From the NCBI GenBank assembly GCA_950096615.1, contig CATNCP010000002.1:61270-125269 (forward strand): a stretch of DNA of 64,000 bases. The letters run 5' to 3'. The number at the start of each line of letters is the position of its first letter. Positions within the stretch are counted from its first letter, which is position 1. A program made the position numbers and the translations under genes. Shown piece by piece: positions 47,252 to 59,459 of the stretch. Below the pieces are notes generated by a model that saw nothing but the letters and a program-made list of their open reading frames with translations, did no database searches and was not told the origin of the DNA. The stretch is from an uncultured Kangiella sp. Its GTDB lineage: Bacteria > Pseudomonadota > Gammaproteobacteria > Enterobacterales > Kangiellaceae.

Positions 47252-47968
47252 ATGAAGTTATTCAAAGTAGCTATTGCAGCAGCCGTTGCGCTATTAATGG
47301 CAACAAGCTGTAAGACCACCGATCTCAACCGTGTATTAGAAGGTATTGGAGGCAACCAGCAATTATCAGAACAAACGGTGATTGCAGGGTTAAAGCAAGC
47401 CTTAGAAGTTGGTACTAAGAACAGTGTTTCGAGTACTAACCGACCGGGAGGATTCAGTAATAATTCACTGATTAAGATTGTGGTGCCTGAGCAACTGGAT
47501 AGCGCCGCCAGCACACTGCGCAAGGTTGGCCTGGGCAGCTACGTGAATAACTTCGAAAAGCAGATGAATCGGGCAGCTGAGAAAGCATCGGGACAGGCTA
47601 AAGATGTTTTTATTGGCGCTATTAGTTCAATGTCGATTGCAGACGCTTGGGGAATATTGCGAGGCGGTGATAATGCTGCGACGGATTATTTCCGAGCTAG
47701 AACACAAACGAATTTAGAACGACGATTTCAGCCTATTATTACCAGCAGTATGCAAAAAGTAGGCTTTTATAACGATTATAAGCAATTACTTGGGGCTTAT
47801 GAAAAACTACCGTTTTCAGACAAGCCAAACATGAACATAGAAGATTATGTCATGCAGGAAACCTTGGATGGTTTATTTACTTTGGTAGCGCAAGAAGAAA
47901 AGAAAATTCGTGACAATCCTGTGGCAAGAACGACAGAATTGTTGCAAAAAGTCTTTTCACAACAATAA
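47252..47968 (+). CDS. DUF4197-like lipoprotein
   Basis: Lipobox ATS|C; GLKQALEVG, MNRAAEKA, DAWGILRGGDNAATDYFR, ARTTELLQKVF. Confidence 0.88.
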   Translation: MKLFKVAIAAAVALLMATSCKTTDLNRVLEGIGGNQQLSEQTVIAGLKQALEVGTKNSVSSTNRPGGFSNNSLIKIVVPEQLDSAASTLRKVGLGSYVNNFEKQMNRAAEKASGQAKDVFIGAISSMSIADAWGILRGGDNAATDYFRARTQTNLERRFQPIITSSMQKVGFYNDYKQLLGAYEKLPFSDKPNMNIEDYVMQETLDGLFTLVAQEEKKIRDNPVARTTELLQKVFSQQ

Positions 47969-48132
47969 GTTAGACTTTACTGGTACGAGTTGTTGGTAAC
48001 GTTACGATAGTACTTGCTAAGTGATACAGTTCACAGTATTTTAGATTAAACTAGAATTTATTTTAGCTACGCCGCGGAAAGCAAGGGATCCAAAAGGTAT
48101 TTAAGCAAGCTATTAAAGGAAGGGATAAGAGG

Positions 48133-48519
48133 ATGTACAATCTAAAAATTACCAACAACTATTTTCATTCCCTGAAAGTAGATTACCCAGACACCAACAA
48201 AGTCTCCAATATGGTTGGTAAGGGCGAAACCCGCACTTTCGAAGGTTGGGGCAACCATATCATCTACGTTGAAGGTATGGGCGAAATTAACTGCATCGAC
48301 CTTGGCGAAGAAAAACTCAAACAATACACCTCCTCCGAGCTCCCTTGGACAGAACAAACCTGGGGCGGCTTGATCCGTTATCGTGGGCTAGACGCCTACT
48401 TCCGCTATGAAGGTGGCACTACGGTTGTCGCCGTGGTCGATCATCATGGTTGCCTAGATCTGAAATTCGAAAAAGGTGGCATGATTGTTCACCTTCCTGA
48501 CGTAACGGTCAGCGAGTAA
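48133..48519 (+). CDS. Hypothetical protein (no signal peptide)
   Basis: RBS AGAGG; own terminator downstream; no motif recognised. Confidence 0.75.
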   Translation: MYNLKITNNYFHSLKVDYPDTNKVSNMVGKGETRTFEGWGNHIIYVEGMGEINCIDLGEEKLKQYTSSELPWTEQTWGGLIRYRGLDAYFRYEGGTTVVAVVDHHGCLDLKFEKGGMIVHLPDVTVSE

Positions 48520-48520
48520 A

Positions 48521-48546
48521 AAAGGCCAGTGCATACTGGTCTTTTT
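48521..48546 (+). terminator. Rho-independent terminator
   Basis: AAAGGCCAGT-gcat-ACTGGTCTTT plus T-run. Confidence 0.8.
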
Positions 48547-48608
48547 ATCTTGTACTAACGTTTAGATTTGCACTAATGACATCTTGTCGTGAACCATAAA
48601 AATGCTAC

Positions 48609-51600
48609 ATGGACTATCACATGCTGAAAAATAGATTACCAAAAACTCGAATTGCTGTACTTGTCGCACTATCAACCATGGCATTGACCAGCATGGCTGC
48701 TTCGCCTGACGTAAAAGTCGAAGTGGATGATCAGCTGACCACGGACGCCGATGGCGATGGCAATGTTGACCGCGGTGATACCGTCACGTATCAAGGTGAA
48801 GTTGATAATAGCGCAGGCACGGATGAAGCGCAGAATGTGGTTTATGAAGCAACCTTGGACGCAAACACAACGTTAGTAGCTGGCTCTGTCAAAGTAACGC
48901 CAGTGGCCGTTGATGATGAATACGATACCTTGGGTAATGTGACTTTTTCTGCAAATGTGGCGGATGGCTTGCTTAACAACGATTTCGACCCGAAGGACGC
49001 TAACGCGCCAACAAACGCGGGCATGACCGTTACTGCTGAAACCGTGACCACGACGCAAGGTGGGACAGCGACCATTAATGCCGATGGTAGTTTTAGTTAT
49101 AACCCAGTTTTAAACTTTACTGGAACCGACACCTTTAGTTATACCGCGGTTGATGATGATGCCATGACGGGTACCGGTACGGTAACCGTGAATGTCACCG
49201 GTAAAGTGTTCTTTGTAGACGACAGTGCAGCGGCTGGTGGCGATGGTTCACAAGCGATGCCGTTTAATGACTTTTCTGCGATTAATGGTGCTGGTGGTGT
49301 TGGTGACGTCGATGAAGCGAATGATGTGATTTACCTGTTTGAAGGGACGTATGCCGATACGCTTGAGCTGGAGAATAATCAAAAAGTTGTCGGCGCGGGT
49401 TCCGAATTAAGTGCGGGTAGCGCGACTATTATTCCGGCGGGAACGGCGCCAAGTTATAGCGGTAGCTTTACTCTGGCATCTAACAACACAATCGAAGGTT
49501 TCGATTTTTCACCAACTACAGGCTATTCGATTAGCGGCTCTGGCGCGTCAGGCGGTATCATTCAAAATTCCAGCCTAACCCTTTCGGGGACAGGCGGCGC
49601 ATTCAATTTAGATAACCATAGCGGTAACTTTGTCTACACTGGCAATATCACTGGCTCAACAAGCGTCAATGCTGTGGCGGTTGATGGCGGTACGCCAAGC
49701 ATCACGCTGGACGGTGATGTCACGGTTAGCGGCGGACGTAATATTGATTTTCGGAATATCACAGGCGGTGGTTTAAGCGTTACGGGCACATTATCTAATA
49801 ATGGTGGATCGGCCATAAACTTATTTAACAACTCCGGCTCACCTAGTTTCGAATTCGGTGATGTCGTTGTGACTTCTGGCGTTGGTACGGCAGTGAACTT
49901 GGAAGACGGTCTTACAGCGACATACAGCTTTAATGGCGATTTGGATATCACCACGACCAATGGCGATGGGTTAATCGTTAATAATGGACTATTAAACTTA
50001 AGCGATGCCAATACGTACAACAACACGATTAATGCGACCAATGGTTACGCGGCCTATCTTGGAAGTTTTGCAGATGTGCTAAACGTCGGCACGTTAACGT
50101 TTGATAGCTTAACTTCAAATAACGCTAATGATGACGCTGGGGTCTACTTTCGAAACCTAGCTGGCTCAATCGAAATTATTAGCGATATTGTGGTTAATAA
50201 CACGAGCAAAAGAGGTGTTTATATTAGAGGCGGCACTGTAGATGTTACCGTACTCGGCGATATTATGGTCGATGGTTATGGTTCGTCGTCTAGTAGCACG
50301 GCTGTGAAAATTGAGGGTGGTGACACCATAGGAAATGTGGTGCTTGGGAATGTCACGACTAGAAATGCACTGATGTCGAGCCCCAATACGGGCATTGAGA
50401 TTGCAGGTGTTATTAATCCAGTAACCGTCGGTGCGGTTGATATTGGCTCCAGTGGGGAGGACGGCATAAGAGTCGTCAGTAATGATGGTAACGTGAGTTT
50501 TACCAGCATTGATATCGGCACTGTGGGAGCGGTGAATGGTAAAGGTGTCGGTGTCAGCGGTAACGGCGTGGGAAATATCAACTTTGGTACGGGCACGATT
50601 AGTAACGCTGAGCAATCTTCATTTGAGGTGTCAAGCGGAAGCGGTGTTACTGAGTTTGCAGGCGATATAAATCATACGAAAAATAGTAACGCCATTTACT
50701 TTAGTAGTCCGTTGGGTACGGTCAACCTGAGCGGTGATATTAACGTCACTTCGGGTAATATTCCGATTGCGGTCCAATCCGCTGGTGGAACCTACAATAT
50801 TACGGGAACTGTGACCATTAATGGGACTAACCGTGTCGTTAATATCGACAATTCTAGTGCCACTTTGACCGTTGCGGATGTAACCGCAACCAATATTGCC
50901 CAGCAGGCGTTTAGAGTGATAAACGGTAGCGCGACGCTCAATATACAGGCGGGTTCGATTCAACAAAGTGGCGCTTTCCCAGGGGTAGTAATCACCGATA
51001 ATACAGGCGGTACTATTACTATCGCTAGTTCGCTAGATATCAACTCTTTTACCGCTGATGCCATCAACTTTAGTAATAACCCTGGTGTGACAGTTGATAT
51101 GAGTGGTCAGTTAGATGTCGATTCTGCCAGTGGTAAGGGCCTAACCGCGACTGGCGGCGGTACCCTGTCTTTATCGGGGGCGTCGAATTTAGTCGATACC
51201 GCGACGGGCGCATTGGTTGAACTGAACGGCATAACGATTGGCGCTGGCGGTATCAATTTTAGTAGCGCAGCGGCTAGCGGAACGCCCGCTTCAGACGTGG
51301 TGAACTTGACCAACGTTGGTGGCGGTACTTTTGCGCTGGATAATCTAACCGTTGCAGGAACGACGAGCGGCGATGCGCTTGAGGTTAACGCTTCTTCAGC
51401 TACCATCAACCTTGGTAATATCGTGGCTGATAACATTAACAACGCGGGCATATTCTTAACGGGCGCTAACGGTAACGTCACTATTGGCTCGGTCGACCTC
51501 GACGCTATTGCTGGCGCTGGAATCTTGATTGCTAATAACACCAATCCTGTTGCGATAAATGGCGGCTCTATTGGCGCAACGGCGACCACGATCGGTAATG

Positions 51601-53396
51601 CATTTGATATTAGTGGTGGCTCGGGCGACGTTACCATGGCTGCGGCAATCACTAACTCACAGAACCGCGCGATAGATATTACGGGCAGAACTGGTGGATC
51701 GGTAAACGTTAGTAGCACGATTAACGAAACAGGCACGGGCCTTAATATAGACGGCAATAGCGGTGGCACGATTAATCTTAGTGGCAATTCACAGGCTATC
51801 AACACGGCTGCCAATACAGCGTTAAAAATTACCAATAACTCAGGCGCTATCGTTAATGTAACTAACGGCGGCTTGGATATTGATGCTTCTACAGCGCTTG
51901 CGGTCAATATCAGTGGTGGCGGTACGGTCAGTGTGACAGGCGCTGGTAATACGATTAATGCGGGTATGGGCGGTGCGCTTAATGTAGCGAGCACGACTAT
52001 CGGCGCAGGCGACCTTAATTTCCAAAGCATTTCACAAAGCGGTGGTTCAAATGCTATCGCGCTTGATGACACGGGTGCGGCAGGCAGCTTAGTTGTGACA
52101 GGTGTTTCAACGACCGTTGGTTCCGGTGGTACTTTGACTAATATTACTACCGAAGCTATTCGCTTAACCGATACCAAAGATCCATCATTTAACGGATTAC
52201 AAATCAGCAACATTACTCGCGAAGCAGTAAAGGGCTTACGCGTGAATGGCATTACCGTAACCAATAGCACGGTCGACAATGCCGGCACCACCGAGCCTGC
52301 GGCAGATGATGATACGTTCGGCTTTGTTGGTGAAACCTTAGGACAAAACGGTTTATTTGGTACGGCACGATTTGAAAATGTCACTATCACCAACACCCAC
52401 GAACGTGCGATTGATATTGTGAATGAAGGTGGTGGTTCGCTCGACTTGGATATTATTAACGTCAGCGTGGATGACAACGATGATACGCAGGGTGAAGATG
52501 CTATCCGCGTACAAAGCGAAGGCTCGATTAACACCGATGTGTTGCTGTCGGGCGGTACCTATAACGATGTTGAATCCGACGTGATAGCGTATTTTGCACA
52601 GGGCACGGGAAGCAACAACCTTACCGTAACTAACGTGACGTCGACCAATGGCGGCGGCCCAGACAACTTCCCGAATGGTGGTGGTATCGCCATTATCGGC
52701 TCTGCGGGATCGAGCACGACGTTTAATGTGAACAACAACAACCTGACAGGAATACAAGGCGAAGGTGTTCAGGTTGTCGGTTTAGCTGGCGCTAACGCAA
52801 CCCTGACCATGAGTGGTTCGATTACAGGGAACACGTTCTCATCTGATAATGCTGACGGCTTAGATCTCGATTTTGATGGCGATACGTCTGGCACTAGCAC
52901 CATGAACATTACCGTTGATGTGAATAACAACAACATAAGTTTTGATGATGATGGTATCGGCATCGATTATCGGGATGCTGCTGGTACGGGTAATTTCACG
53001 ATTCGTAATAATACCTTGACCGTGATTAATGGTGACGATGGAGTGAACACGGATAGTGATGACGGTATTTTCATCTTTAAGGACGATGATGTTGGAAGCG
53101 GCGCATCGAACTTAAATGTAGCGGCGTCAAACAATACTTTCTCGGGCATTCAAGCCGGAAACAACACTATCGAAGTTGTGGATATTCGTGATGCAGGAAG
53201 AAGTGCTTGCTTTAATTTAAGTGGCAACTCAGTTGGCAATATAGAGTTAGACTTCGATGCAACTGGAGCGGGCGGTTCGGTGACACAAGCATCGGTAGCG
53301 GCGATTGCATCGGATAATAACGGCTCGACGGTGACTGTGGTTAGTGAGGCACCAACCTTTAACTCTGCGACTTGTGCAAGCGTTCCATTACCATAA
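48609..53396 (+). CDS. Giant secreted protein: N-terminal partial DUF11, Ig/cadherin-like (tandem-95/Big_9-like) domain, long right-handed beta-helix
   Basis: Sec signal; GDTVTY...LDANTTLVAGSV; PVAVDD...GLLNND...DGSFSYNP..NFTGTDTFSY; FFVDDSAAAGGDGS..PF helix start; ~1300 aa of G/N/T/S/I-rich repeats. The start could also be 48621. Confidence 0.85.
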   Translation: MDYHMLKNRLPKTRIAVLVALSTMALTSMAASPDVKVEVDDQLTTDADGDGNVDRGDTVTYQGEVDNSAGTDEAQNVVYEATLDANTTLVAGSVKVTPVAVDDEYDTLGNVTFSANVADGLLNNDFDPKDANAPTNAGMTVTAETVTTTQGGTATINADGSFSYNPVLNFTGTDTFSYTAVDDDAMTGTGTVTVNVTGKVFFVDDSAAAGGDGSQAMPFNDFSAINGAGGVGDVDEANDVIYLFEGTYADTLELENNQKVVGAGSELSAGSATIIPAGTAPSYSGSFTLASNNTIEGFDFSPTTGYSISGSGASGGIIQNSSLTLSGTGGAFNLDNHSGNFVYTGNITGSTSVNAVAVDGGTPSITLDGDVTVSGGRNIDFRNITGGGLSVTGTLSNNGGSAINLFNNSGSPSFEFGDVVVTSGVGTAVNLEDGLTATYSFNGDLDITTTNGDGLIVNNGLLNLSDANTYNNTINATNGYAAYLGSFADVLNVGTLTFDSLTSNNANDDAGVYFRNLAGSIEIISDIVVNNTSKRGVYIRGGTVDVTVLGDIMVDGYGSSSSSTAVKIEGGDTIGNVVLGNVTTRNALMSSPNTGIEIAGVINPVTVGAVDIGSSGEDGIRVVSNDGNVSFTSIDIGTVGAVNGKGVGVSGNGVGNINFGTGTISNAEQSSFEVSSGSGVTEFAGDINHTKNSNAIYFSSPLGTVNLSGDINVTSGNIPIAVQSAGGTYNITGTVTINGTNRVVNIDNSSATLTVADVTATNIAQQAFRVINGSATLNIQAGSIQQSGAFPGVVITDNTGGTITIASSLDINSFTADAINFSNNPGVTVDMSGQLDVDSASGKGLTATGGGTLSLSGASNLVDTATGALVELNGITIGAGGINFSSAAASGTPASDVVNLTNVGGGTFALDNLTVAGTTSGDALEVNASSATINLGNIVADNINNAGIFLTGANGNVTIGSVDLDAIAGAGILIANNTNPVAINGGSIGATATTIGNAFDISGGSGDVTMAAAITNSQNRAIDITGRTGGSVNVSSTINETGTGLNIDGNSGGTINLSGNSQAINTAANTALKITNNSGAIVNVTNGGLDIDASTALAVNISGGGTVSVTGAGNTINAGMGGALNVASTTIGAGDLNFQSISQSGGSNAIALDDTGAAGSLVVTGVSTTVGSGGTLTNITTEAIRLTDTKDPSFNGLQISNITREAVKGLRVNGITVTNSTVDNAGTTEPAADDDTFGFVGETLGQNGLFGTARFENVTITNTHERAIDIVNEGGGSLDLDIINVSVDDNDDTQGEDAIRVQSEGSINTDVLLSGGTYNDVESDVIAYFAQGTGSNNLTVTNVTSTNGGGPDNFPNGGGIAIIGSAGSSTTFNVNNNNLTGIQGEGVQVVGLAGANATLTMSGSITGNTFSSDNADGLDLDFDGDTSGTSTMNITVDVNNNNISFDDDGIGIDYRDAAGTGNFTIRNNTLTVINGDDGVNTDSDDGIFIFKDDDVGSGASNLNVAASNNTFSGIQAGNNTIEVVDIRDAGRSACFNLSGNSVGNIELDFDATGAGGSVTQASVAAIASDNNGSTVTVVSEAPTFNSATCASVPLP

Positions 53397-53428
53397 TTAT
53401 AAAGCGACTATATAGAAAGGAGACTTAG

Positions 53429-53935
53429 ATGTCAGAACCATTTTTAGCTGAAGTGCGAATGGTTGGTTTTAACTTCGCGCCACGGGGGTGGGCGTTGTGT
53501 GATGGACAAATCATGCCGATCAATCAGAACCAATCACTCTATAGCTTATTAGGCACCACTTATGGTGGCGACGGTAGAACCAGTTTTGCCTTGCCCGACA
53601 TGCGCGGTAGAACACCGCTGCATGTTGGTAATGGGCATGCTGAAGGAAGTAAAGGTGGTGAAGAAACACACACCTTATCAGTTAACGAAATGCCTCAGCA
53701 TAAACACACGGTAAACGCATCGCATGATAATGCGACTGCGACGTCTCCGAGTGGAAAAAGTTTAGCTGGAGCAAGAGAAAACACCTATTCAACCTACGAT
53801 AGTGCGACTAAAGTTGCCATGGCGAATGACTTCTTAACTCACGTCGGTGGCGGTCAAGCTCATGAAAATATGCAACCTTATACAACGCTAAACTTTTGTA
53901 TTGCGATACAAGGGTTGTTCCCGTCACGGAATTAA
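53429..53935 (+). CDS. Phage tail-collar domain protein (short tail fibre / microcystin-dependent-protein-like), paralogue 1
   Basis: MSEPFLAEVRMVGFNFAPRGWALCDGQ...LYSLLGTTYGGDG.TSFALPDMRGR; HKH; HENMQP. Confidence 0.92.
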   Translation: MSEPFLAEVRMVGFNFAPRGWALCDGQIMPINQNQSLYSLLGTTYGGDGRTSFALPDMRGRTPLHVGNGHAEGSKGGEETHTLSVNEMPQHKHTVNASHDNATATSPSGKSLAGARENTYSTYDSATKVAMANDFLTHVGGGQAHENMQPYTTLNFCIAIQGLFPSRN

Positions 53936-53944
53936 GGAGGATTT

Positions 53945-54466
53945 ATGTCAGAACCTTTTGTTGGTGAAATACGAATGTTCGCGGGCAACTTTGCACCTCG
54001 TGGTTGGGCTTTTTGTGACGGACAGTTATTAGCAGTATCTCAAAACGATGCACTTTTTTCTTTGTTTGGGACTATTTATGGTGGTGACGGAAGGACAACA
54101 TTTGGTCTTCCTGATATGCGTGGCCGTTTACCCATTCATGCGGGATCAGGACCTGGACTATCGCCAAGGCGATTAGGCTCGAAAGGCGGTGCGGAAGAAG
54201 TCACTTTAACAGCAAATCAACTACCCTCTCACGGCCACACGGTCAATGCGGTTAGTACACCTGCAAGTGAAACTGGACCAGGGTTAAATGAAACCTTGGC
54301 GCAGTCGGTTGGGTATGATGCCTATGTACCATCAGGAAGTCCTGAGACGATGGCGTCACAGAATGTATCAAGCGTTGGTGGCTCAAGGTCACACACTAAT
54401 GAAATGCCTTATCTATGTGTGCATTTTATTGTTGCCTTGTTTGGAATTTACCCATCGCGTCATTAA
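53945..54466 (+). CDS. Phage tail-collar domain protein, paralogue 2
   Basis: MSEPFVGEIRMFAGNFAPRGWAFCDGQLL...ALFSLFGTIYGGDGRTTFGLPDMRGR; HGH. Confidence 0.92.
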   Translation: MSEPFVGEIRMFAGNFAPRGWAFCDGQLLAVSQNDALFSLFGTIYGGDGRTTFGLPDMRGRLPIHAGSGPGLSPRRLGSKGGAEEVTLTANQLPSHGHTVNAVSTPASETGPGLNETLAQSVGYDAYVPSGSPETMASQNVSSVGGSRSHTNEMPYLCVHFIVALFGIYPSRH

Positions 54467-54475
54467 GGAATCGTT

Positions 54476-55006
54476 ATGTCAGAACCATTTATTGCTGAAA
54501 TTAGAATATTCGCTGGAAACTTCGCTCCCCGCGGCTGGGCTTTTTGTAACGGACAGCTACTACCGGTGGCACAAAACACTGCTTTGTTCTCGTTGATAGG
54601 AACAACTTATGGCGGTGATGGTAGAACGACTACAGCGCTACCAAATTTAGAAGGTCGGGCGCCAATGCACCCTGGACGTGGCCCAGGCTTAACCGCAAAG
54701 CGACTTGGTCAGAGAGGTGGCGTTGAAACTGTTACCTTATCGGAAGCGCAAATTCCTAATCATTCGCACTCGCAGTTAGGATCAGCGGATGAAACTGAAT
54801 TTGATGGAACGAATAATCCAGAAAATGCTATTCCCGGAACGCTAGAGGGTGGTAAAGAGTTATATGGCAATCCATCAAACTTACAGCCACTTGCTGAGGC
54901 TGCTGTTGAAACTGCTGGTGGCAGTCAGGCGCACAATAACATGCAACCGTACTTAACCATGAATTTTATTATTGCGCTTCAGGGACTCTATCCTAGCAGG
55001 GGTTAA
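54476..55006 (+). CDS. Phage tail-collar domain protein, paralogue 3
   Basis: MSEPFIAEIRIFAGNFAPRGWAFCNGQLL...ALFSLIGTTYGGDGRTT.ALPNLEGR; HSH; HNNMQP. Confidence 0.92.
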   Translation: MSEPFIAEIRIFAGNFAPRGWAFCNGQLLPVAQNTALFSLIGTTYGGDGRTTTALPNLEGRAPMHPGRGPGLTAKRLGQRGGVETVTLSEAQIPNHSHSQLGSADETEFDGTNNPENAIPGTLEGGKELYGNPSNLQPLAEAAVETAGGSQAHNNMQPYLTMNFIIALQGLYPSRG

Positions 55007-55009
55007 TCA

Positions 55010-55495
55010 GTGTCTATCAATATTACATTTAGGAAGGTTGTCGAAGAGGATAAAGATTTCTTAAAAGAAGTTTATGCCAGTACTCGTTATGAAGAATTAG
55101 GTCAAACGAATTGGTCGCAACAACAAATAAACGACTTTTTAGGGATGCAATTTGAAGCTCAGCACCAGTTTTATCAGGAGCAATTTTCGACTGATAAGTT
55201 TGAAGTGATTCAGTGTGATGAGGTTGATGCTGGTCGTCTTTATCTTGAGCATCGCCCTGATGAAATTCGTATTGTCGATATAACGTTATTACCTGAATTT
55301 AGAAGCAAAGGTTTAGGAACGAAGATATTAATAAATGTGATTAACGAGGCGCAGGAAAAAAGTATTGCTGTGCGAATTCATGTTGAAAAGAATAACCCAG
55401 CGCTGACTTTATATCAGCGCCTGGGCTTTAGACAGATTGGTGATCGAGGCGTGTATTGGTTGATGGAAAAAGCAAACGATAAGCAAGCAGCTTAA
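55010..55495 (+). CDS. GNAT-family N-acetyltransferase
   Basis: DITLLPEFRSKGLGT (acetyl-CoA motif A), NPALTLYQRLGF. Confidence 0.92.
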   Translation: MSINITFRKVVEEDKDFLKEVYASTRYEELGQTNWSQQQINDFLGMQFEAQHQFYQEQFSTDKFEVIQCDEVDAGRLYLEHRPDEIRIVDITLLPEFRSKGLGTKILINVINEAQEKSIAVRIHVEKNNPALTLYQRLGFRQIGDRGVYWLMEKANDKQAA

Positions 55496-55506
55496 CTCTT
55501 ATCGAG

Positions 55507-55800
55507 TTACTTTTGTCGATTTATGACGGCCTCGTATTGTACGACTTCATCGTCGCCATGAACGGGGACGAGAAAGAGATCATTAACACCTAGATCTGCG
55601 TGATGAAGCGAATAAGTGGACTGTAAGAGTAATGGGTCACTTGATTCAAAGAGTAATGAAAAGCGTTCGAAGTCAGGAACATCCTTGGATGTGTGATCGC
55701 TACACTCGATGAGCTGTAAATTAAAATGTTGGTCGTTGAGTTCGACAGTAAAGTTAGTTTGTACGGCTTTACGAAAGTCTTCCTGGCTAATTTGAGACAT
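55507..55800 (-). CDS. DUF6916-like small protein
   Basis: F...LQLIEC...RFSLLF...LLQSTYSLHHADLG..DLFLVPV......YEAVIN pattern recalled from proteins found beside tail-collar genes; RBS GAAGGA. Confidence 0.7.
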   Translation of the reverse strand: MSQISQEDFRKAVQTNFTVELNDQHFNLQLIECSDHTSKDVPDFERFSLLFESSDPLLLQSTYSLHHADLGVNDLFLVPVHGDDEVVQYEAVINRQK

Positions 55801-55899
55801 GTTAATTCCTTCTTATGGATTATTTTCATGTCATGTTAACAAAGAATATATTTATTGCATCAAAAAATTAAGCGCTAGCTTAAGAATGAGGAAAGTATC

Positions 55900-58800
55900 A
55901 TGAGCCGTAGAAATATTGGCCTTGGATTGTTGAGTTTCATGACGATGTTTGCGATGACAGCAAAGGCTGCACCACAAATTAATTTAGGAAACTTGCCTGC
56001 AGGGAAGAAAGTCTCAATCAGTTATGATGTGACGATCAATACAAATGCGACAGGTAATCAAGTTAGCTCCCAAGCGCTAGTAACGGGTGCAAACTTTGCT
56101 GATGTTTCGAGTGATGATCCTGATACTGCCACGTTGAATGATGCAACGATATCGACAGTGGACGAAGCAGACACAACGCTACAACTAACAGCCAGTGACG
56201 CTACCCCCACGACGAGCGAAAATGTGACTTTCACTGCAACAGTAGACACGACCGACGGTACGTTACCAACGCCAACAGGCAACGTCGAGTTTAGAGTTGA
56301 TGGCGGTAGTGCCACTGTCGTTGCTTTGAATGCTAGCGGTGTTGCGACTTATGATGCAGTCTTTGGTGCAGGAAACTACACAGTTACAGCTGACTATATC
56401 GGCGGCACAGACAATAAAAGTTCAAGCAATAACATAGGTATTTCAGTAAGCCGAGCAAATACAACCACTGATATTACCGCAGTAAGCCCAGCAAGCATTT
56501 ATCCAGGCGATACTGTAACAGTGAGTTATAGCGTATCTGTAGAGCCAGTAGCTGGTGGTATTCCTGTTTCGGGAACAGTAGAAGTTACTGACGGGGTGGA
56601 CAGTTGTACCGCGAGTGCGTCAGCAGGGAGCTGTATGTTGCAGTTTACTACGCCTGGGAATAAAGACTTGATAGCAACATTTACCAGCGGATCGACCGAG
56701 CTTAATAACAGTGCTTCCGCGGTATACACTGTCACGGCCATTAATAATGCACCGGTACTATCAGCCATTGGCAACCAAACGATTGAAGCAACAAATGCTT
56801 TAATGTTTACTGCTAACGCTACTGATGTCGATCCAGCCGCCACTATCACTTATAGCTTAGGTGCTGGAGCGCCAGTTGGAGCTGCAATAAGTCCGATGAC
56901 TGGAGATTTTTCTTGGACCCCATCAGAGGCGCAAGGAGGAGCGGTTTACACAGTCACTATTATTGCGGCAGATCAATATAATAGTACCGACTCAGAAACA
57001 ATCAGCATTGATGTTACAGAACTGGATAACCCTCCTGTCTTAAGTAATGACGTTGTGTCAACGGATGAAGATACTCCAGTAACCTTTAACCCATTCGATA
57101 ATGATACGGAGGACAATAGTTTTGACTTCAGTACCATAAATATTGTCAGCCAGCCGTCTTCGGGAACATTGAATTTCAGCACAGCGAATGGCGAAATGAC
57201 ATACACGCCTAACGCTAACTTTAATGGTGCAGATCAAGCACAGTACCAGGTGAAAGATGATGCGGGAGCAGATTCGAATATTGCGACCATTAACTTCACT
57301 ATAAACTCGGTGAATGATTTGCCAGTGTTTGATTCGACGCCAATTACCAGTGTTATTGAAGGCGAACAATATAACTACCAGGTTGTAACTAGTGATGTGG
57401 AAGGTGACCCATTAACACTTACAGCGGTGTCATTACCTTCTTGGTTACAGCTTGTAGGAAACCAGTTAATAGGAACTCCTGTAACAGAAGATAGAGGTAA
57501 CCATGCTGTTATCATAAGTCTTACGGATGGACAGGACACTGTTGAGCAGTCTTTTGAAGTATCGGTTGTTTCTGTACATAGCAATGACTTGTCTATTGAA
57601 AAATCACTTGATACTGAGAGCCCTCTATTAGGTGAAGAATTTACGTTGACTTATCGAATAACGAATAGCGGTCCTGACCTGGCTTCTGGTGTTGTATTAG
57701 ATGCTGAGATAACAGGTGATGCCGTTGTTACCTCCGGGGACAGCCGTTGCCAAATTAATTTTCCTGCGCTTAGCTGTAATATTGGTCCTGTTTCAGTTGA
57801 TGAGGCGCAAGAGGTTAGCGTGACCATGACGAGTCAGGCGTTAGGTGATGTTTATTATTATGCAAAGATATCATCAAATGACGACTTTGATGCGTCTAAT
57901 AATGAGCTAGGATTTGGCTTGTCGGTAACCAATGGTTTGATGACTGACAAAGCGACTACTGTTGGTGAGGCGAAAGCTCAATTAGCTGTGACAGGAGATG
58001 TTGATAACGATGGTGATGATGACATCGTGCTCTTACGTGGCGCTAACGCTTTAGCCTCGGTCTTTATTAATCAAAACTCGAACAGTTTTGAAAAAGCGTC
58101 TGACGTAGTTGGTATTGAGTCTCCTGTTGCTGCGCAGCTTGAGTATATTAATGACGATAATTATATCGATTTAGTCGTGGCCACTAGCCAAAATAATCAA
58201 ACATTAGTCTTTGCTGGCGACGGGTTGGGCGGTTTCATTTTAGAGCAGTCTCTTGGTTTATCAGATAATACCAGTGTGGATATAGCAGATTTAAATAATG
58301 ATGGCTGGATGGACATAGTTTTCATTAATGATGGTGCGGCTGATGAAGTATATTTAAACCAAGGTGGATCATTACAGTTTAGTCATCTGCTAGGTGATGT
58401 GAGTACAAGTCTTGCTATAGCGTTAGCAGATGTTGATGGCAATGGTATGATTGATGCGATAATTAGTAAAGCAGATGGTACCAGCCACTACTTTAGTAAT
58501 GCCCAGCTTTTGGATACTTCGGGAATAAGTAGCTATTCGTCAATTGATACGGGGTTAATTAGTGATATTACAACCATGGATTTGGATAATGACGGCATGG
58601 AGGAGTTTGTTTTAGGAGGCTCAATTGATAAGGATAACTATGAGAAAGTTCCAAGCAATAAAGTTTACGGTTGGAATGGTACTCTTGTAGAGAGGCTAAA
58701 TTTTGGTGGTGTCGACACTAATCAAGTCATTATATCTGACATTGATGGTGATGGTGATGAAGATCTCTTTGTTGCGAATGACTCAGGCTACCATCAAGTT

Positions 58801-59433
58801 TACCAGAATGATTCTGGTAATTTTACAGTAGCGAGTAAACTGTTATTCAACAAGGACTACACAAGCGCAGCTTGGGTGCTTGGCGACCATGGGGTAGATA
58901 ATTTATTACTAGCCGAATCAATAGCTGAAGGAAGTGCTTTATATTATAATCAAGGCGGCGGAAACTTTGGTCAAGCTTTCACGGATCTAGCGTTAACCTA
59001 TACCGCGAGTGTGTCGACAGTCACTATCGATGGTGTTATTGAAGCGCAATTGATGGCAACGAATAATGGACCAAGTTCAGCACAAGAAGTTAGCTTAACA
59101 GCCTCAATTAACTCGCAGGTCAATGTCATCCGCTTTGGTTCGGGTGGCGAGGATTGTACGGTGACTGACTCAGCGCTTAGTTGTGAAGTTGGTACTTTGA
59201 TGCCAGGTGAGAGTGTCATGATCCCGCTGAGACTTCTGGCAATGAATACTGGCGAAGCCGTAATTAGGGCTGAAGTGTCGTCACCCATTGATGGCTTAAA
59301 CCCGAGTAATGATACACAAGAAGTTCGTATTAATGTCATAGAGAAGAAAGACTCAGGTGGTGGTCAAGTTGGCTTGGTTCTTCTACTGTTATTAATGCTG
59401 GCCGGGGTTCGTCGCAGAAAATATTGTAAATAG
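55900..59433 (+). CDS. Large surface protein: partial DUF11, Ig-like domains, DUF11, FG-GAP/VCBS beta-propeller, DUF11, GlyGly-CTERM anchor
   Basis: Signal ending AKA; Big_3/He_PIG/tandem-95-like segments; DLSIEK...TNSGPD; six Dx(D/N)xDG repeats; C-terminal DSGGGQVGLVLLLLLMLAGVRRRKYCK. Confidence 0.88.
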   Translation: MSRRNIGLGLLSFMTMFAMTAKAAPQINLGNLPAGKKVSISYDVTINTNATGNQVSSQALVTGANFADVSSDDPDTATLNDATISTVDEADTTLQLTASDATPTTSENVTFTATVDTTDGTLPTPTGNVEFRVDGGSATVVALNASGVATYDAVFGAGNYTVTADYIGGTDNKSSSNNIGISVSRANTTTDITAVSPASIYPGDTVTVSYSVSVEPVAGGIPVSGTVEVTDGVDSCTASASAGSCMLQFTTPGNKDLIATFTSGSTELNNSASAVYTVTAINNAPVLSAIGNQTIEATNALMFTANATDVDPAATITYSLGAGAPVGAAISPMTGDFSWTPSEAQGGAVYTVTIIAADQYNSTDSETISIDVTELDNPPVLSNDVVSTDEDTPVTFNPFDNDTEDNSFDFSTINIVSQPSSGTLNFSTANGEMTYTPNANFNGADQAQYQVKDDAGADSNIATINFTINSVNDLPVFDSTPITSVIEGEQYNYQVVTSDVEGDPLTLTAVSLPSWLQLVGNQLIGTPVTEDRGNHAVIISLTDGQDTVEQSFEVSVVSVHSNDLSIEKSLDTESPLLGEEFTLTYRITNSGPDLASGVVLDAEITGDAVVTSGDSRCQINFPALSCNIGPVSVDEAQEVSVTMTSQALGDVYYYAKISSNDDFDASNNELGFGLSVTNGLMTDKATTVGEAKAQLAVTGDVDNDGDDDIVLLRGANALASVFINQNSNSFEKASDVVGIESPVAAQLEYINDDNYIDLVVATSQNNQTLVFAGDGLGGFILEQSLGLSDNTSVDIADLNNDGWMDIVFINDGAADEVYLNQGGSLQFSHLLGDVSTSLAIALADVDGNGMIDAIISKADGTSHYFSNAQLLDTSGISSYSSIDTGLISDITTMDLDNDGMEEFVLGGSIDKDNYEKVPSNKVYGWNGTLVERLNFGGVDTNQVIISDIDGDGDEDLFVANDSGYHQVYQNDSGNFTVASKLLFNKDYTSAAWVLGDHGVDNLLLAESIAEGSALYYNQGGGNFGQAFTDLALTYTASVSTVTIDGVIEAQLMATNNGPSSAQEVSLTASINSQVNVIRFGSGGEDCTVTDSALSCEVGTLMPGESVMIPLRLLAMNTGEAVIRAEVSSPIDGLNPSNDTQEVRINVIEKKDSGGGQVGLVLLLLLMLAGVRRRKYCK

Positions 59434-59437
59434 CTAG

Positions 59438-59459
59438 AGGCCAGAGGTCTGGCCTTTTG
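59438..59459 (+). terminator. Rho-independent terminator
   Basis: AGGCCAG-aggt-CTGGCCT followed by TTTGT. Confidence 0.7.

What the first reader, a model, noticed from the sequence alone, without database searches (positions are those of the whole stretch)
48609..59433. Phage-free tail-collar cassette: candidate undescribed surface fibre/adhesion system
Seen: giant secreted beta-helix protein, three tandem tail-collar paralogues, a GNAT, an inverted DUF6916-like gene and a giant Ig/FG-GAP protein with a GlyGly-CTERM anchor, bounded by terminators at 48521 and 59438. Gaps of 32, 9, 9 and 3 bp with good RBSs make the first five genes one operon. No capsid, sheath, tube, baseplate, integrase or lysis gene is present. 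Established: tail-collar domains come from phage short tail fibres. From memory, the collar x3 + GNAT + DUF6916 + large adhesin arrangement recurs across phyla and I know of no established mechanism for it. Inference: a domesticated apparatus with a membrane-anchored stalk (1177 aa), a long beta-helical shaft (1595 aa) and a receptor-binding trimer, with GNAT and DUF6916 as maturation factors.
Basis: partly seen in the sequence, partly recalled or inferred. Interest (0 to 1): 0.88.

Follow-up and report, generated by a model that had tools for sequence, protein, structure and literature searches.

The report
Non-phage tail-fibre-tip triplet cassette
An 11.5-kb accessory island in a marine Kangiella genome carries one copy of a widespread, non-viral and still unstudied gene cassette (three phage-tail-fibre-tip proteins, their own acetyltransferase and a small beta-barrel protein, beside two giant surface proteins) that most likely builds a three-chain binding knob used at the cell surface.

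Summary
All seven genes, the 32/9/9/3-bp gaps, both terminators and the GlyGly-CTERM tail are there. The genome has a rhombosortase and no phage sheath or baseplate gene. Comparison with a close relative's empty site shows an 11.5-kb island (47969-59445) that also holds a 128-aa orphan gene.

The core recurs outside phages in at least 13 phyla. It is three collar paralogues in fixed order, a GNAT and DUF6916. A protein of 900 aa or more lies beside it in 35 of 45 well-flanked loci. This scan has already flagged the same cassette about twenty times on other DNA. I found no paper describing it.

New here:
- Giants directly upstream of col1 share a two-cysteine C-terminal cap (21 of 22).
- The giant partner is optional: 4 of 5 genomes with a giant-less cassette have no cap-type giant anywhere.
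- T6SS is not needed.
- This copy lacks the Tat-signal DUF6916 found elsewhere.
- A large family of single-chain triple-collar proteins carries signal peptides and PEP-CTERM anchors, which places collar particles outside the cell.

Function and export route are untested.

The parts
47969..59445 (.). Accessory island (11,477 bp) inserted between the stop codon of the DUF4197 gene and its terminator hairpin
   Evidence: In a close relative (G009/L016) the flanks abut with 22 bp between them. Homology ends at 47968 and resumes at 59446. The island is present in 4 of 24 species of the genus, always at this site. No integrase or flanking repeats were seen.
48133..48519 (+). 128-aa orphan protein (p128), a passenger gene of the island with its own terminator (hairpin 48526-48539)
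   Evidence: No Pfam, PHROGs or PADLOC match. It is absent from the empty site. The family is small, with 61 clusters. Three of three other contexts lack collar genes. One of 80 cassette loci (Lutibacter, L072) has it next to the collars.
48609..53396 (+). 1595-aa exported giant protein: signal peptide (about 48609-48701), Big_9/cadherin-like Ig domain (48897-49193), long right-handed beta-helix, two-cysteine C-terminal cap (about 53094-53393; Cys1534 and Cys1589 are its only cysteines)
   Evidence: Pfam Big_9 E 4e-11; sequence. AlphaFold2 model of the last 420 aa has pLDDT 81.7 and pTM 0.85. Foldseek matches are all beta-helix proteins: polygalacturonase, RbmB, AlgE4, PfbA and tailspikes. BLAST homologues lie beside collar triplets in about 30 of 80 loci. 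The cap motif is shared by 21 of 22 giants directly upstream of col1.
53429..53935 (+). Collar paralogue 1 (168 aa), no signal peptide
   Evidence: PF07484 E 1e-28 and Gp10_C E 5e-7. Position-1 genes elsewhere are col1-type in 51 of 65 loci.
53945..54466 (+). Collar paralogue 2 (173 aa), no signal peptide
   Evidence: PF07484 E 3.5e-29. Sequence matches to solved phage fibres: 8kec long tail fibre including the HxH motif, and T4 gp12 (1ocy, 1pdi, 5iv5). Orthologues are 53-75% identical across phyla.
54476..55006 (+). Collar paralogue 3 (176 aa), no signal peptide
   Evidence: PF07484 E 1e-27. Position-3 genes elsewhere are col3-type in 57 of 65 loci.
55010..55495 (+). Dedicated GNAT acetyltransferase (161 aa), 3 bp after col3
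   Evidence: Acetyltransf_1, _7 and _10. A homologue of this GNAT lies within 6 kb of the triplet in 42 of 45 well-flanked loci. It is a distinct subfamily in its own genome (E 7.5e-74; next best GNAT 1.6e-11). About half of the 26 solved relatives by sequence are N-terminal acetyltransferases, weakly.
55507..55800 (-). DUF6916 protein (97 aa), cytoplasmic type, convergent with the GNAT
   Evidence: PF21880 E 5e-22. It is the only copy in the genome. AlphaFold2 pLDDT is 95.3: one short helix and a six-stranded beta-barrel/sandwich. No significant PDB or BFVD match. It lies within 6 kb of the triplet in 36 of 45 loci.
55900..59433 (+). 1177-aa Ig/cadherin/CARDB/FG-GAP/DUF11 adhesin-like protein with signal peptide and GlyGly-CTERM tail (59356-59421)
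   Evidence: Pfam. GlyGly-CTERM 22.6 bits against a cut-off of 15.5. Rhombosortase present in the genome. It is conserved with the island within the genus at 47-62% identity. Similar Big_9-rich proteins with GlyGly-CTERM-like tails lie beside triplets in Pseudoalteromonas, Thalassomonas and Gilvimarinus.
59438..59450 (+). Terminator hairpin that closes the island; in island-free relatives it directly follows the DUF4197 gene

Best explanation
The region is an 11.5-kb horizontally acquired island in a Kangiella genome. It carries a minimal copy of a cellular, non-viral cassette.

Shown:
- The core is three ancient paralogues of the phage tail-fibre tip, always in the order 1-2-3 and translationally coupled, plus a dedicated GNAT and a DUF6916 beta-barrel protein.
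- It usually lies beside giant exported proteins.

Inferred:
1. The three paralogues assemble 1:1:1 into one knitted knob stapled by a metal at the HxH motifs. Its conserved scaffold presents three different, fast-evolving tip loops of about 45 residues each. These form a ligand-binding face, probably for glycans.
2. The GNAT modifies the knob in the cytoplasm. My specific guess is N-alpha-acetylation of the invariant Ser/Ala-2 N-termini, which sit on the face where a phage fibre shaft would join.
3. DUF6916 is an assembly or escort factor. In many other genomes a second, Tat-signal copy could carry the folded knob across the membrane. That copy is missing here.
4. The knob acts outside the cell together with the giant proteins encoded beside it. 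One is the 1595-aa Sec-exported Ig + right-handed beta-helix protein, whose conserved two-cysteine C-terminal cap is the likeliest docking site. The other, in this lineage, is a rhombosortase-anchored Ig/FG-GAP adhesin.

Net function: recognition of and adhesion to polysaccharide-bearing surfaces such as particles, algae or other cells.
For: Three-unit particle:
- Collar genes come in sets of 3 (64 loci) or 6, which are two complete 1-2-3 sets (6 loci). Apparent counts of 2 or 4 are contig ends or a frameshift.
- Gene position predicts paralogue type: 51, 54 and 57 of 65 loci. The tree needs 27 label changes against 92.5 when shuffled.
- Median spacing between collar genes is 12 nt.
- The HxH motif is invariant and aligns with the HxH of a solved phage long tail fibre.
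- Three consecutive collar proteins of virophage DSLV2 co-purify as a heterotrimer and bind LPS (PMC12724248).
- A large family of single-chain proteins holds exactly three collar units: 114 of the best 120.

Binding face:
- The scaffold is highly conserved and the segment after HxH is hypervariable.
- Within the genus, tips are 54-83% identical and scaffolds 84-96%.

Outside the cell:
- The single-chain relatives carry signal-like N-termini (100 of 120), PEP-CTERM tails (34 by Pfam, 81 by pattern) or a dockerin.
- A collar-domain protein of Ruegeria pomeroyi was detected in exoproteomes (PMC4949626).
- Tat-signal DUF6916 copies are common in other loci.

Link to giant proteins:
- An ORF of 900 aa or more lies within 3.5 kb in 35 of 45 loci, against 16 of 401 background ORFs.
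- 21 of 22 giants directly upstream of col1 share the two-cysteine cap, against 94 of 576 other ORFs.
- A Big_9 domain is present in all five giant partners scanned at ≥967 aa, besides the window's two giants.

Companions and expression:
- GNAT in 42 of 45 loci and DUF6916 in 36 of 45.
- Residue 2 of the collars is Ser or Ala in 164 of 169.
- Cytoplasmic tailoring enzymes are embedded in some cassettes.
- A collar x3 + acetyltransferase + hypothetical-protein cluster, which I take to be the same cassette, is co-induced 8- to 16-fold in Acaryochloris under far-red low light (PMC11633204).

Not phage.
Against: - None of the three collars has a signal peptide. This island and genome lack a Tat-type DUF6916, so no export route is visible here.
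- Four of five gammaproteobacterial genomes whose cassette lacks an adjacent giant have no cap-type giant anywhere. The knob therefore cannot exist only to cap that protein.
- The single-chain triple-collar proteins arose by an independent triplication of a col2-like unit. They are a parallel, not a fusion of col1+2+3.
- GNAT similarity to N-terminal acetyltransferases is weak and confined to the generic acetyl-CoA region.
- The last 45 residues of the giant protein are modelled with low confidence.
- No complex prediction, expression data for this organism or biochemistry was available.
- The census loci are the best 80 of at least 594 matches and are not phylogenetically independent.
Confidence: 0.5

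Rival explanations
1. The core is a self-contained module. The collar knob, GNAT and DUF6916 work on their own, for example as a released lectin or a bacteriocin-like agent. DUF6916 would be an inhibitor or immunity protein made in the cytoplasm and, in many genomes, also in the periplasm. Giant surface proteins are merely frequent neighbours in surface islands.
For: - Core-only cassettes sit among housekeeping genes.
- Four of five such genomes have no cap-type giant anywhere.
- DUF6916 occurs in both a cytoplasmic and an exported form. This is the pattern of immunity proteins for toxins that pass through both compartments (established knowledge of colicin and T6SS immunity).
- Collar paralogues in Solibacter were reported under positive selection (PMC3174227).
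Against: - The scaffold is 53-75% identical across phyla, unlike arms-race toxins.
- No toxin domain is present and PADLOC gives no match.
- Giants are about 20-fold enriched next to the triplet and share a specific cap exactly where they abut col1.
- DUF6916 has no match to any known immunity fold.
Confidence: 0.2
2. One reading: the GlyGly-CTERM protein is a membrane-anchored stalk, the 1595-aa beta-helix is a shaft attached to it, and the collar trimer is the tip.
For: - All parts are inherited together as one island in four Kangiella species.
- The GlyGly-CTERM tail and the rhombosortase are confirmed.
- Big_9-rich giants with GlyGly-CTERM-like tails lie beside triplets in three other marine genera.
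- Both giants carry Big_9 domains.
Against: - The adhesin type and the beta-helix type usually occur separately. Most cassettes have only one or neither.
- Within the genus the adhesin is the fastest-evolving gene of the island (47-62% identity).
- The beta-helix is single-chain, not a three-fold shaft.
- The adhesin follows a gene on the opposite strand and a 99-bp gap, so it is probably a separate transcript.
Confidence: 0.1
3. Polysaccharide-processing complex. The beta-helix giant is a depolymerase, lyase or epimerase like a phage tailspike, and the collar knob is its targeting lectin. The cassette remodels or digests exopolysaccharide rather than mediating adhesion.
For: The best Foldseek matches of the C-terminal beta-helix are polygalacturonase, the Vibrio polysaccharide lyase RbmB, alginate epimerases, chondroitinase B and tailspike depolymerases.
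Against: - The matches are weak (best E 4.7e-4, TM at most 0.45). Adhesins with the same fold (PfbA, antigen 43) also match.
- No glycoside hydrolase or lyase family is detected by Pfam.
- Catalytic residues could not be assessed.
Confidence: 0.08
4. Purely cytoplasmic role. The collars never leave the cell and act, with the GNAT and DUF6916, as an intracellular factor, for example in handling or regulating the co-encoded giant exoprotein.
For: - In this island the collars, the GNAT and DUF6916 all lack export signals.
- Most cassettes have only the signal-less DUF6916.
Against: - The fold is a receptor-binding tip with hypervariable exposed loops.
- The single-chain relatives are exported and anchored.
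- Sec substrates are exported unfolded and do not need a trimeric knob (established knowledge).
Confidence: 0.1
5. Tail fibres of a prophage, tailocin, eCIS or T6SS encoded elsewhere, or a decayed prophage remnant.
For: - Collar domains are typical of phage fibres.
- In Acaryochloris the cassette is co-induced with contractile-system genes.
- This genome has two T6SS loci.
Against: - The genome is 100% complete and has no sheath or Baseplate_J gene.
- A congener (G002) has the island but no T6SS sheath.
- Among 144 flanking genes from 44 loci, no head, tail, lysis or integrase family appears among the 25 most-recurrent of 89 matched families.
- The proteins begin at the collar domain and have no attachment shaft.
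Confidence: 0.02

Closest known systems
Receptor-binding tips of phage T4 short and long tail fibres (gp12 C-terminal domain, gp37 tip; Pfam Collar PF07484 and Gp10_C)
   Same: - Collar domain.
- HxH metal-binding motif.
- Conserved closing strands after a variable head.
- Direct sequence matches to 1ocy, 1pdi, 5iv5 and 8kec.
   Different: - The phage proteins are homotrimers of one long chain with a fibrous shaft fixed to a virion.
- Here there are three separate paralogues of about 170 aa that begin at the collar, with no shaft and no virion genes.
- Here they travel with a GNAT and DUF6916.
Tripartite tail proteins of virophage DSLV2 (PMC12724248)
   Same: - Three consecutive, co-oriented collar genes of about 200 aa.
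- They co-purified as a heterotrimer in that paper.
- They have a variable head patch and bind LPS.
   Different: - Those are viral, lie next to capsid genes, are proposed to sit on the capsid, and have no GNAT, DUF6916 or giant exoprotein.
- This cassette is chromosomal and cellular.
- Heterotrimer formation is untested for the bacterial proteins.
Single-chain triple-collar proteins annotated 'microcystin-dependent protein' or 'tail fiber protein' (COG4675 type), many with PEP-CTERM
   Same: - Cellular and non-phage.
- Exactly three collar units per particle, each with HxH.
- Found between housekeeping genes.
   Different: - One polypeptide with a signal peptide and a sorting tag, very short tips and a circularly permuted closing strand.
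- They arose by a separate triplication.
- They are also uncharacterised experimentally.
rhiABC(D) operon of Rhizobium leguminosarum (RhiB carries a Collar domain) and the related Microcystis Mrp proteins
   Same: - A non-phage collar-domain protein in a small operon.
- Expressed in an interaction setting (the rhizosphere), with function still unknown (PMC13133039; PMC4949626).
   Different: - Only RhiB has a recognisable collar domain.
- The operon is flanked by the quorum-sensing genes rhiI and rhiR on symbiosis plasmids.
- No GNAT or DUF6916 is reported.
- I could not read the original 1992 paper.
Right-handed beta-helix adhesins and phage tailspikes (PfbA, antigen 43, P22/HK620 tailspikes, RbmB)
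   Same: Fold of the 1595-aa protein's C-terminal 420 residues; exported; Ig domain plus a long helix.
   Different: - No autotransporter barrel and no catalytic family detected.
- A specific two-cysteine C-terminal cap found only in giants that abut col1.
Tat 'hitchhiker' export (E. coli HybO/HybC, DmsA/DmsB; from established knowledge)
   Same: In many other copies of the cassette, a small Tat-signal DUF6916 is encoded right after three signal-less proteins that fold around a metal.
   Different: This island and genome have no Tat-signal DUF6916. Co-export has never been tested.

Membership tests
Pfam Collar (PF07484) proteins | Domain match above the gathering score | tested here: met
   96-101 bits against a cut-off of 24 for all three genes.
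T4 gp12/gp37-type fibre tip | HxH metal-binding motif after the collar | tested here: met
   The two His of the HxH motif (H96, H98 in col2 numbering) are invariant in 19 sequences. The motif aligns with LPSHQH of the solved long tail fibre 8kec. Metal binding itself was not tested.
T4 gp12/gp37-type fibre tip | Homotrimer of a single gene product with an N-terminal fibrous shaft attached to a virion | tested here: not met
   There are three distinct paralogues in fixed order. The proteins start at the collar. No virion genes are present in the locus or the genome.
Prophage, tailocin or eCIS locus | Sheath, tube, baseplate, capsid, integrase or lysis genes nearby or in the genome | tested here: not met
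   PHROGs gives only fibre matches for the collars. The genome has no Phage_sheath_1 or Baseplate_J. Flanking genes of 44 related loci show no structural phage family among the 25 most-recurrent of 89 matched families.
T6SS-associated cargo or fibre | Co-occurrence with a T6SS | tested here: not met
   G002 (100% complete) has the island but no VipB. Many congeners have a T6SS without the island.
Virophage-type tripartite collar heterotrimer | Three consecutive co-oriented collar genes | tested here: met
Virophage-type tripartite collar heterotrimer | 1:1:1 complex of the three products | not testable with these tools
   Only single-chain structure prediction was offered. The support is indirect: set size, fixed order, coupling and the single-chain analogues.
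DUF6916 (PF21880) | Domain match above the gathering score | tested here: met
   78.2 bits against a cut-off of 27. The family has 9,639 clusters at 50% identity.
RimI-type N-alpha-acetyltransferase | Match above the equivalog cut-off, or demonstrated N-terminal substrate | tested here: inconclusive
   TIGR01575 scores 41.6 bits against a cut-off of 86.4. Many of the weak PDB matches are N-terminal acetyltransferases. Collar residue 2 is Ser or Ala in 164 of 169. There is no biochemical test.
GNAT-RHH type II toxin-antitoxin | Adjacent RHH/DUF1778 antitoxin | tested here: not met
   The neighbour is a six-stranded beta-barrel DUF6916, not an RHH protein. The GNAT always travels with the collars.
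GlyGly-CTERM / rhombosortase substrates | C-terminal GlyGly-CTERM motif plus a rhombosortase in the genome | tested here: met
   TIGR03501 scores 22.6 bits against 15.5 at window 59356-59421. TIGR03902 scores 133.8 bits against 84.
Right-handed parallel beta-helix (pectate-lyase-like) proteins | Three-strand rungs; structural match to family members | tested here: met
   AlphaFold2 model with pLDDT 81.7. The listed Foldseek matches are beta-helix proteins, best E 4.7e-4. This is model-level evidence only.
Tat hitchhiker complex | A twin-arginine signal on one partner encoded in the locus | tested here: not met
   No Tat-type DUF6916 is present in the island or the genome. It is present in many other copies.
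rhiABC-type operon | Flanking luxI/luxR-type regulators; a single collar protein (RhiB) with RhiA and RhiC | tested here: not met
   None of the eight island genes is a regulator. There are three clear collar genes here.

The most novel reading that the evidence does not exclude
A widespread 'cellular tail fibre', present in at least 13 phyla with thousands of lineages.

- A shaft-less heterotrimeric receptor-binding knob is domesticated from phage fibre tips.
- It is matured by a dedicated N-terminal acetyltransferase.
- It leaves the cell already folded, by Tat hitchhiking on a DUF6916 escort where that copy exists and by an unknown route here.
- Its three different subunits dock onto the three faces of a single-chain beta-helix exoprotein through a disulfide-stapled C-terminal adaptor.
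- This gives bacteria exchangeable, fast-evolving recognition tips on giant surface fibres.
Probability: 0.2. Interest if true: 0.85.

Novelty: new variant of a known kind. Interest (0 to 1): 0.68.

Why it matters
Phage receptor-binding proteins are the best-understood devices for recognising cell surfaces. This cassette seems to be a cellular reuse of that device. It is conserved in thousands of lineages: DUF6916 alone has 9,639 clusters at 50% identity. I found no published function for it.

If the model holds, it would:
- Explain a large share of the genes annotated 'microcystin-dependent protein' or 'tail fiber protein' outside prophages.
- Assign roles to DUF6916 and to a GNAT subfamily.
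- Define a new way of tipping giant adhesins with exchangeable binding heads.
- Pose a clear export problem, namely how folded, signal-less trimers leave the cell.

It also matters for annotation, because these loci are easily miscalled as prophage remnants.

Tried and rejected
- Prophage, eCIS or tailocin origin. Rejected: no sheath or baseplate in the genome, and no phage structural family among the 25 most-recurrent PHROG families in the flanks of 44 related loci.
- T6SS dependence. Rejected: G002 has the island without a T6SS.
- Anti-phage defence system. No PADLOC match.
- p128 as a new cassette component. Rejected: three of three other contexts lack collars, and only 1 of 80 cassette loci has it.
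- A hidden Tat-type DUF6916 elsewhere in the genome. None found with a dedicated profile.
- Fold assignment for DUF6916. The model is confident, but there is no significant match in PDB (best E 0.055) or BFVD (best E 0.02). The weak phage-tail beta-barrel matches are not evidence.
- Sequence match of the giant protein to solved structures. None.
- The single-chain triple-collar proteins as a strict fusion of col1+2+3. Rejected: their units are closer to each other than to col1-3.
- The first locus search with a 19-sequence collar alignment failed for lack of a conserved word. It was repeated with col2 orthologues only.
- RNA or read evidence for this organism.
- The 1992 rhiABCR paper is not held.
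- A literature search combining 'tail collar' with secretome terms was swamped by unrelated papers.

Full report
**What is in the window.** The ORF map matches the finding exactly.

- The first gene (48609-53396, 1595 aa) begins with a Sec-type signal peptide. It has one Big_9/cadherin-like Ig domain at residues 97-195.
- Three genes of 168, 173 and 176 aa follow. Each matches the phage tail Collar domain at about 1e-28, and two also match the T4 gp10 C-terminal domain.
- Next come a 161-aa GNAT, a 97-aa DUF6916 protein on the opposite strand, and a 1177-aa protein. The last holds Big_3_5, Big_9, cadherin-like, CARDB, five FG-GAP repeats and DUF11.
- The gaps of 32, 9, 9 and 3 bp and the ribosome-binding sites are as described. 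So are the hairpins at about 48530 and 59438.
- The GlyGly-CTERM tail passes its curated cut-off, and the genome encodes a rhombosortase.
- By the names on proteins in the same 90% cluster as its HemB, the organism is a Kangiella.

**The beta-helix claim.** Pfam does not see a beta-helix, so I tested the claim. An AlphaFold2 model of the last 420 residues was built on 21 homologues. It has pLDDT 81.7 and pTM 0.85 and shows regular three-strand rungs. Its Foldseek matches are all single-chain right-handed beta-helix proteins. They include polygalacturonase, the Vibrio lyase RbmB, alginate epimerases, the adhesin PfbA and phage tailspikes, though the scores are weak (best E 4.7e-4). The protein is therefore a beta-helix, but not a three-fold fibre shaft.

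**The unit that is gained and lost.**
- Only 4 of 24 species of the genus carry Collar and DUF6916 genes, always together and always at this site.
- In a close relative the DUF4197 gene is followed directly by its terminator and the alpha/beta-hydrolase gene. Alignment of the flanks puts the island at 47969-59445.
- The island therefore also includes a 128-aa orphan gene (48133-48519) with its own terminator.
- That gene is a passenger. Its small family lies elsewhere without collar genes in three of three contexts. It accompanies the cassette in only 1 of 80 other loci.
- No integrase or flanking repeats were seen.
- Within the genus the collars evolve as slowly as housekeeping genes (78-92% identity). 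The two giant proteins evolve fastest (47-72%).

**Not phage, not a contractile system, not a known defence system.**
- PHROGs matches only tail-fibre families for the collars and generic acetyltransferase families for the GNAT. PADLOC matches nothing.
- The genome is 100% complete and has no sheath or Baseplate_J gene.
- It has two T6SS loci. However, a congener with the island has no T6SS sheath, and many congeners have a T6SS without the island.
- Among 144 flanking genes from 44 related loci, no head, tail, lysis or integrase family appears among the 25 most-recurrent of 89 matched families. The matches are ABC transporters, primase, clamp loader and the like.

**Recurrence.**
- In 400 sampled genomes of the class, DUF6916 occurs in 10. 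In eight of them it lies next to, or on contig fragments with, a collar triplet.
- Loci from six other gammaproteobacterial families share only three gene families with the window: Collar, GNAT and DUF6916. There the core sits among housekeeping genes such as thrS, uvrB, recG, polA and dnaX.
- A search of one genome per species with col2 orthologues found at least 594 loci. The best 80 come from at least 13 phyla and are 53-75% identical to the window's col2.
- Among the 45 loci with a triplet and at least 6 kb on both sides:
  - 42 have the GNAT and 36 have DUF6916.
  - 35 have an ORF of 900 aa or more within 3.5 kb, against 16 of 401 background ORFs.
  - 20 have a giant with BLAST similarity to the window's 1595-aa protein.
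- A DUF6916 profile finds 9,639 clusters at 50% identity in 1.84 billion representatives.

**Evidence for a three-chain particle.**
- Collar genes occur as 3 (64 loci) or 6 (6 loci). The sixes are two complete 1-2-3 sets. The twos are contig ends, and the single four is a frameshifted first gene.
- Gene position predicts paralogue type in 51, 54 and 57 of 65 loci. The tree needs 27 changes of the position label, against 92.5 when shuffled.
- Spacing between collar genes has a median of 12 nt.
- The HxH motif is invariant and aligns with the HxH of a solved phage long tail fibre.
- The only experimental precedent I found is viral. Three consecutive collar proteins of virophage DSLV2 co-purify as a heterotrimer and bind Synechococcus LPS (PMC12724248).

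**A cellular parallel.**
- One gammaproteobacterium encodes a single 522-aa protein, lying between sulP and rnr. It has a signal peptide, three tandem collar units each with HxH, a circularly permuted closing strand and a PEP-CTERM tail.
- This family is large, with at least 1,875 clusters. Of the best 120, 114 have three units and 100 have a signal-like N-terminus. Between 34 and 81 have PEP-CTERM, and one has a dockerin.
- The units arose by a separate triplication, so this is a parallel rather than a fusion of col1-3.
- It still indicates that a collar particle needs three units and works outside the cell.

**Binding face.**
- In each paralogue the first 98 or so and last 30 or so residues are strongly conserved across phyla. 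The roughly 45 residues after HxH are hypervariable.
- Within the genus, tips are 54-83% identical and scaffolds 84-96%.
- This is the pattern of a receptor-binding head on a fixed scaffold.

**The giant partners.**
- Every giant that ends just upstream of col1 shares a C-terminal module of about 100 residues. It has one cysteine 62-98 residues from the end and another 2-14 residues from the end, followed by proline.
- In the window's protein and in two proteins of about 3000 aa, these are the only two cysteines.
- The terminal cysteine is present in 21 of 22 such giants, against 94 of 576 other ORFs (the loci are not independent).
- I read this as a disulfide-stapled cap of an exported protein and the most likely docking site for the knob. 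The disulfide and the docking are both inferences, and the last 45 residues are poorly modelled.
- A second class of partner is a Big_9-rich adhesin with a GlyGly-CTERM-like tail. It occurs beside triplets in Pseudoalteromonas, Thalassomonas and Gilvimarinus. The Kangiella island has both classes.
- The partner is optional. Four of five genomes whose cassette lacks an adjacent giant have no cap-type giant anywhere.

**GNAT and DUF6916.**
- The GNAT is a distinct subfamily. Its weak matches to solved structures are rich in N-terminal acetyltransferases, but it is far below the RimI cut-off.
- All collars begin M-[S/A]-[E/D]-P-[F/Y]. Residue 2 is Ser or Ala in 164 of 169. This is the substrate class of such enzymes. 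N-terminal acetylation of the knob is therefore my specific but untested proposal.
- Some cassettes also embed a glycosyltransferase, a PhyH or JmjC dioxygenase, or a sulfotransferase. That also points to cytoplasmic tailoring.
- DUF6916 folds confidently (pLDDT 95.3) as a short helix plus a six-stranded beta-barrel, with no significant structural match.
- Many other loci carry a second copy with a canonical twin-arginine signal, encoded right after col3. This suggests folded co-export.
- This island and genome have only the signal-less copy. The export route here is unexplained.

**Published expression evidence.**
- In two Acaryochloris marina strains, three 'phage tail collar' genes, the adjacent acetyltransferase and neighbouring hypothetical genes are among the most strongly induced genes in far-red low light (PMC11633204).
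- A collar-domain protein of Ruegeria pomeroyi was found in exoproteomes (PMC4949626). I could not check whether it belongs to a triplet.
- RhiB of the Rhizobium rhiABC operon also carries the domain (PMC13133039).
- None of the 62 papers containing 'tail collar' describes this cassette.

**Relation to earlier notes of this scan.** About twenty earlier notes describe the same cassette on other DNA and reach similar readings. My independent census agrees on the core, the fixed order and the phylum spread. It disagrees with the statement that a giant beta-helix protein is always present.

**Verdict.** The cassette is real, non-viral, widespread and, as far as I could find, undescribed. Its mechanism remains inferred.

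Noticed in passing
L102:5664-7232 (-), genome G072 contig C22: A single 522-aa protein lies between sulP and rnr. It has a signal peptide, three tandem collar units, a circularly permuted closing strand and a PEP-CTERM tail. It represents a family of at least 1,875 clusters annotated 'microcystin-dependent protein' or 'tail fiber protein'.
   Followed up: partly
window 48133-48519: A 128-aa orphan protein with no family match. It is part of the island but elsewhere is not linked to collar genes. One Lutibacter locus (L072) has a homologue directly upstream of its collar triplet.
   Followed up: yes
window 53094-53393, and the C-termini of giants in L019-L093: A conserved two-cysteine C-terminal cap ending in C-x(1-3)-P occurs on otherwise divergent giants of 1000-3000 aa that abut col1. 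In three of them these are the only cysteines in the protein.
   Followed up: partly
L010:11278-15724; L022:3035-4252; L032:5261-6331: Cytoplasmic tailoring enzymes are embedded in some cassettes: sulfotransferase, JmjC and PhyH dioxygenases, asparagine synthase and a group-1 glycosyltransferase.
   Followed up: no
L048:9486-9991: The first collar gene of a Thalassolituus triplet is split into 75- and 116-aa pieces, an apparent frameshift.
   Followed up: no
L103:6014-8072 (genome G412): A collar triplet followed by a 258-aa GNAT with an N-terminal extension. No DUF6916 was detected in that genome with the Pfam model.
   Followed up: no
own genome, contigs C19:45128-46054 and C24:34463-35389: Two T6SS sheath (VipB) genes in a 2.57-Mb genome. 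In addition, seven proteins pass the GlyGly-CTERM cut-off.
   Followed up: partly
Acaryochloris marina AM1_3684-3690 (PMC11633204): A collar x3 + acetyltransferase + hypothetical-protein cluster, likely the same cassette, is co-induced in far-red low light together with contractile-injection-system genes (AM1_0269-0278, AM1_6406) and a type II secretion pseudopilin.
   Followed up: no
window 48897-49193 and 57028-57300; L021, L050, L052, L069, L097: A Big_9/cadherin-like Ig domain is the one module shared by both classes of giant partner, the beta-helix type and the anchored adhesin type.
   Followed up: no
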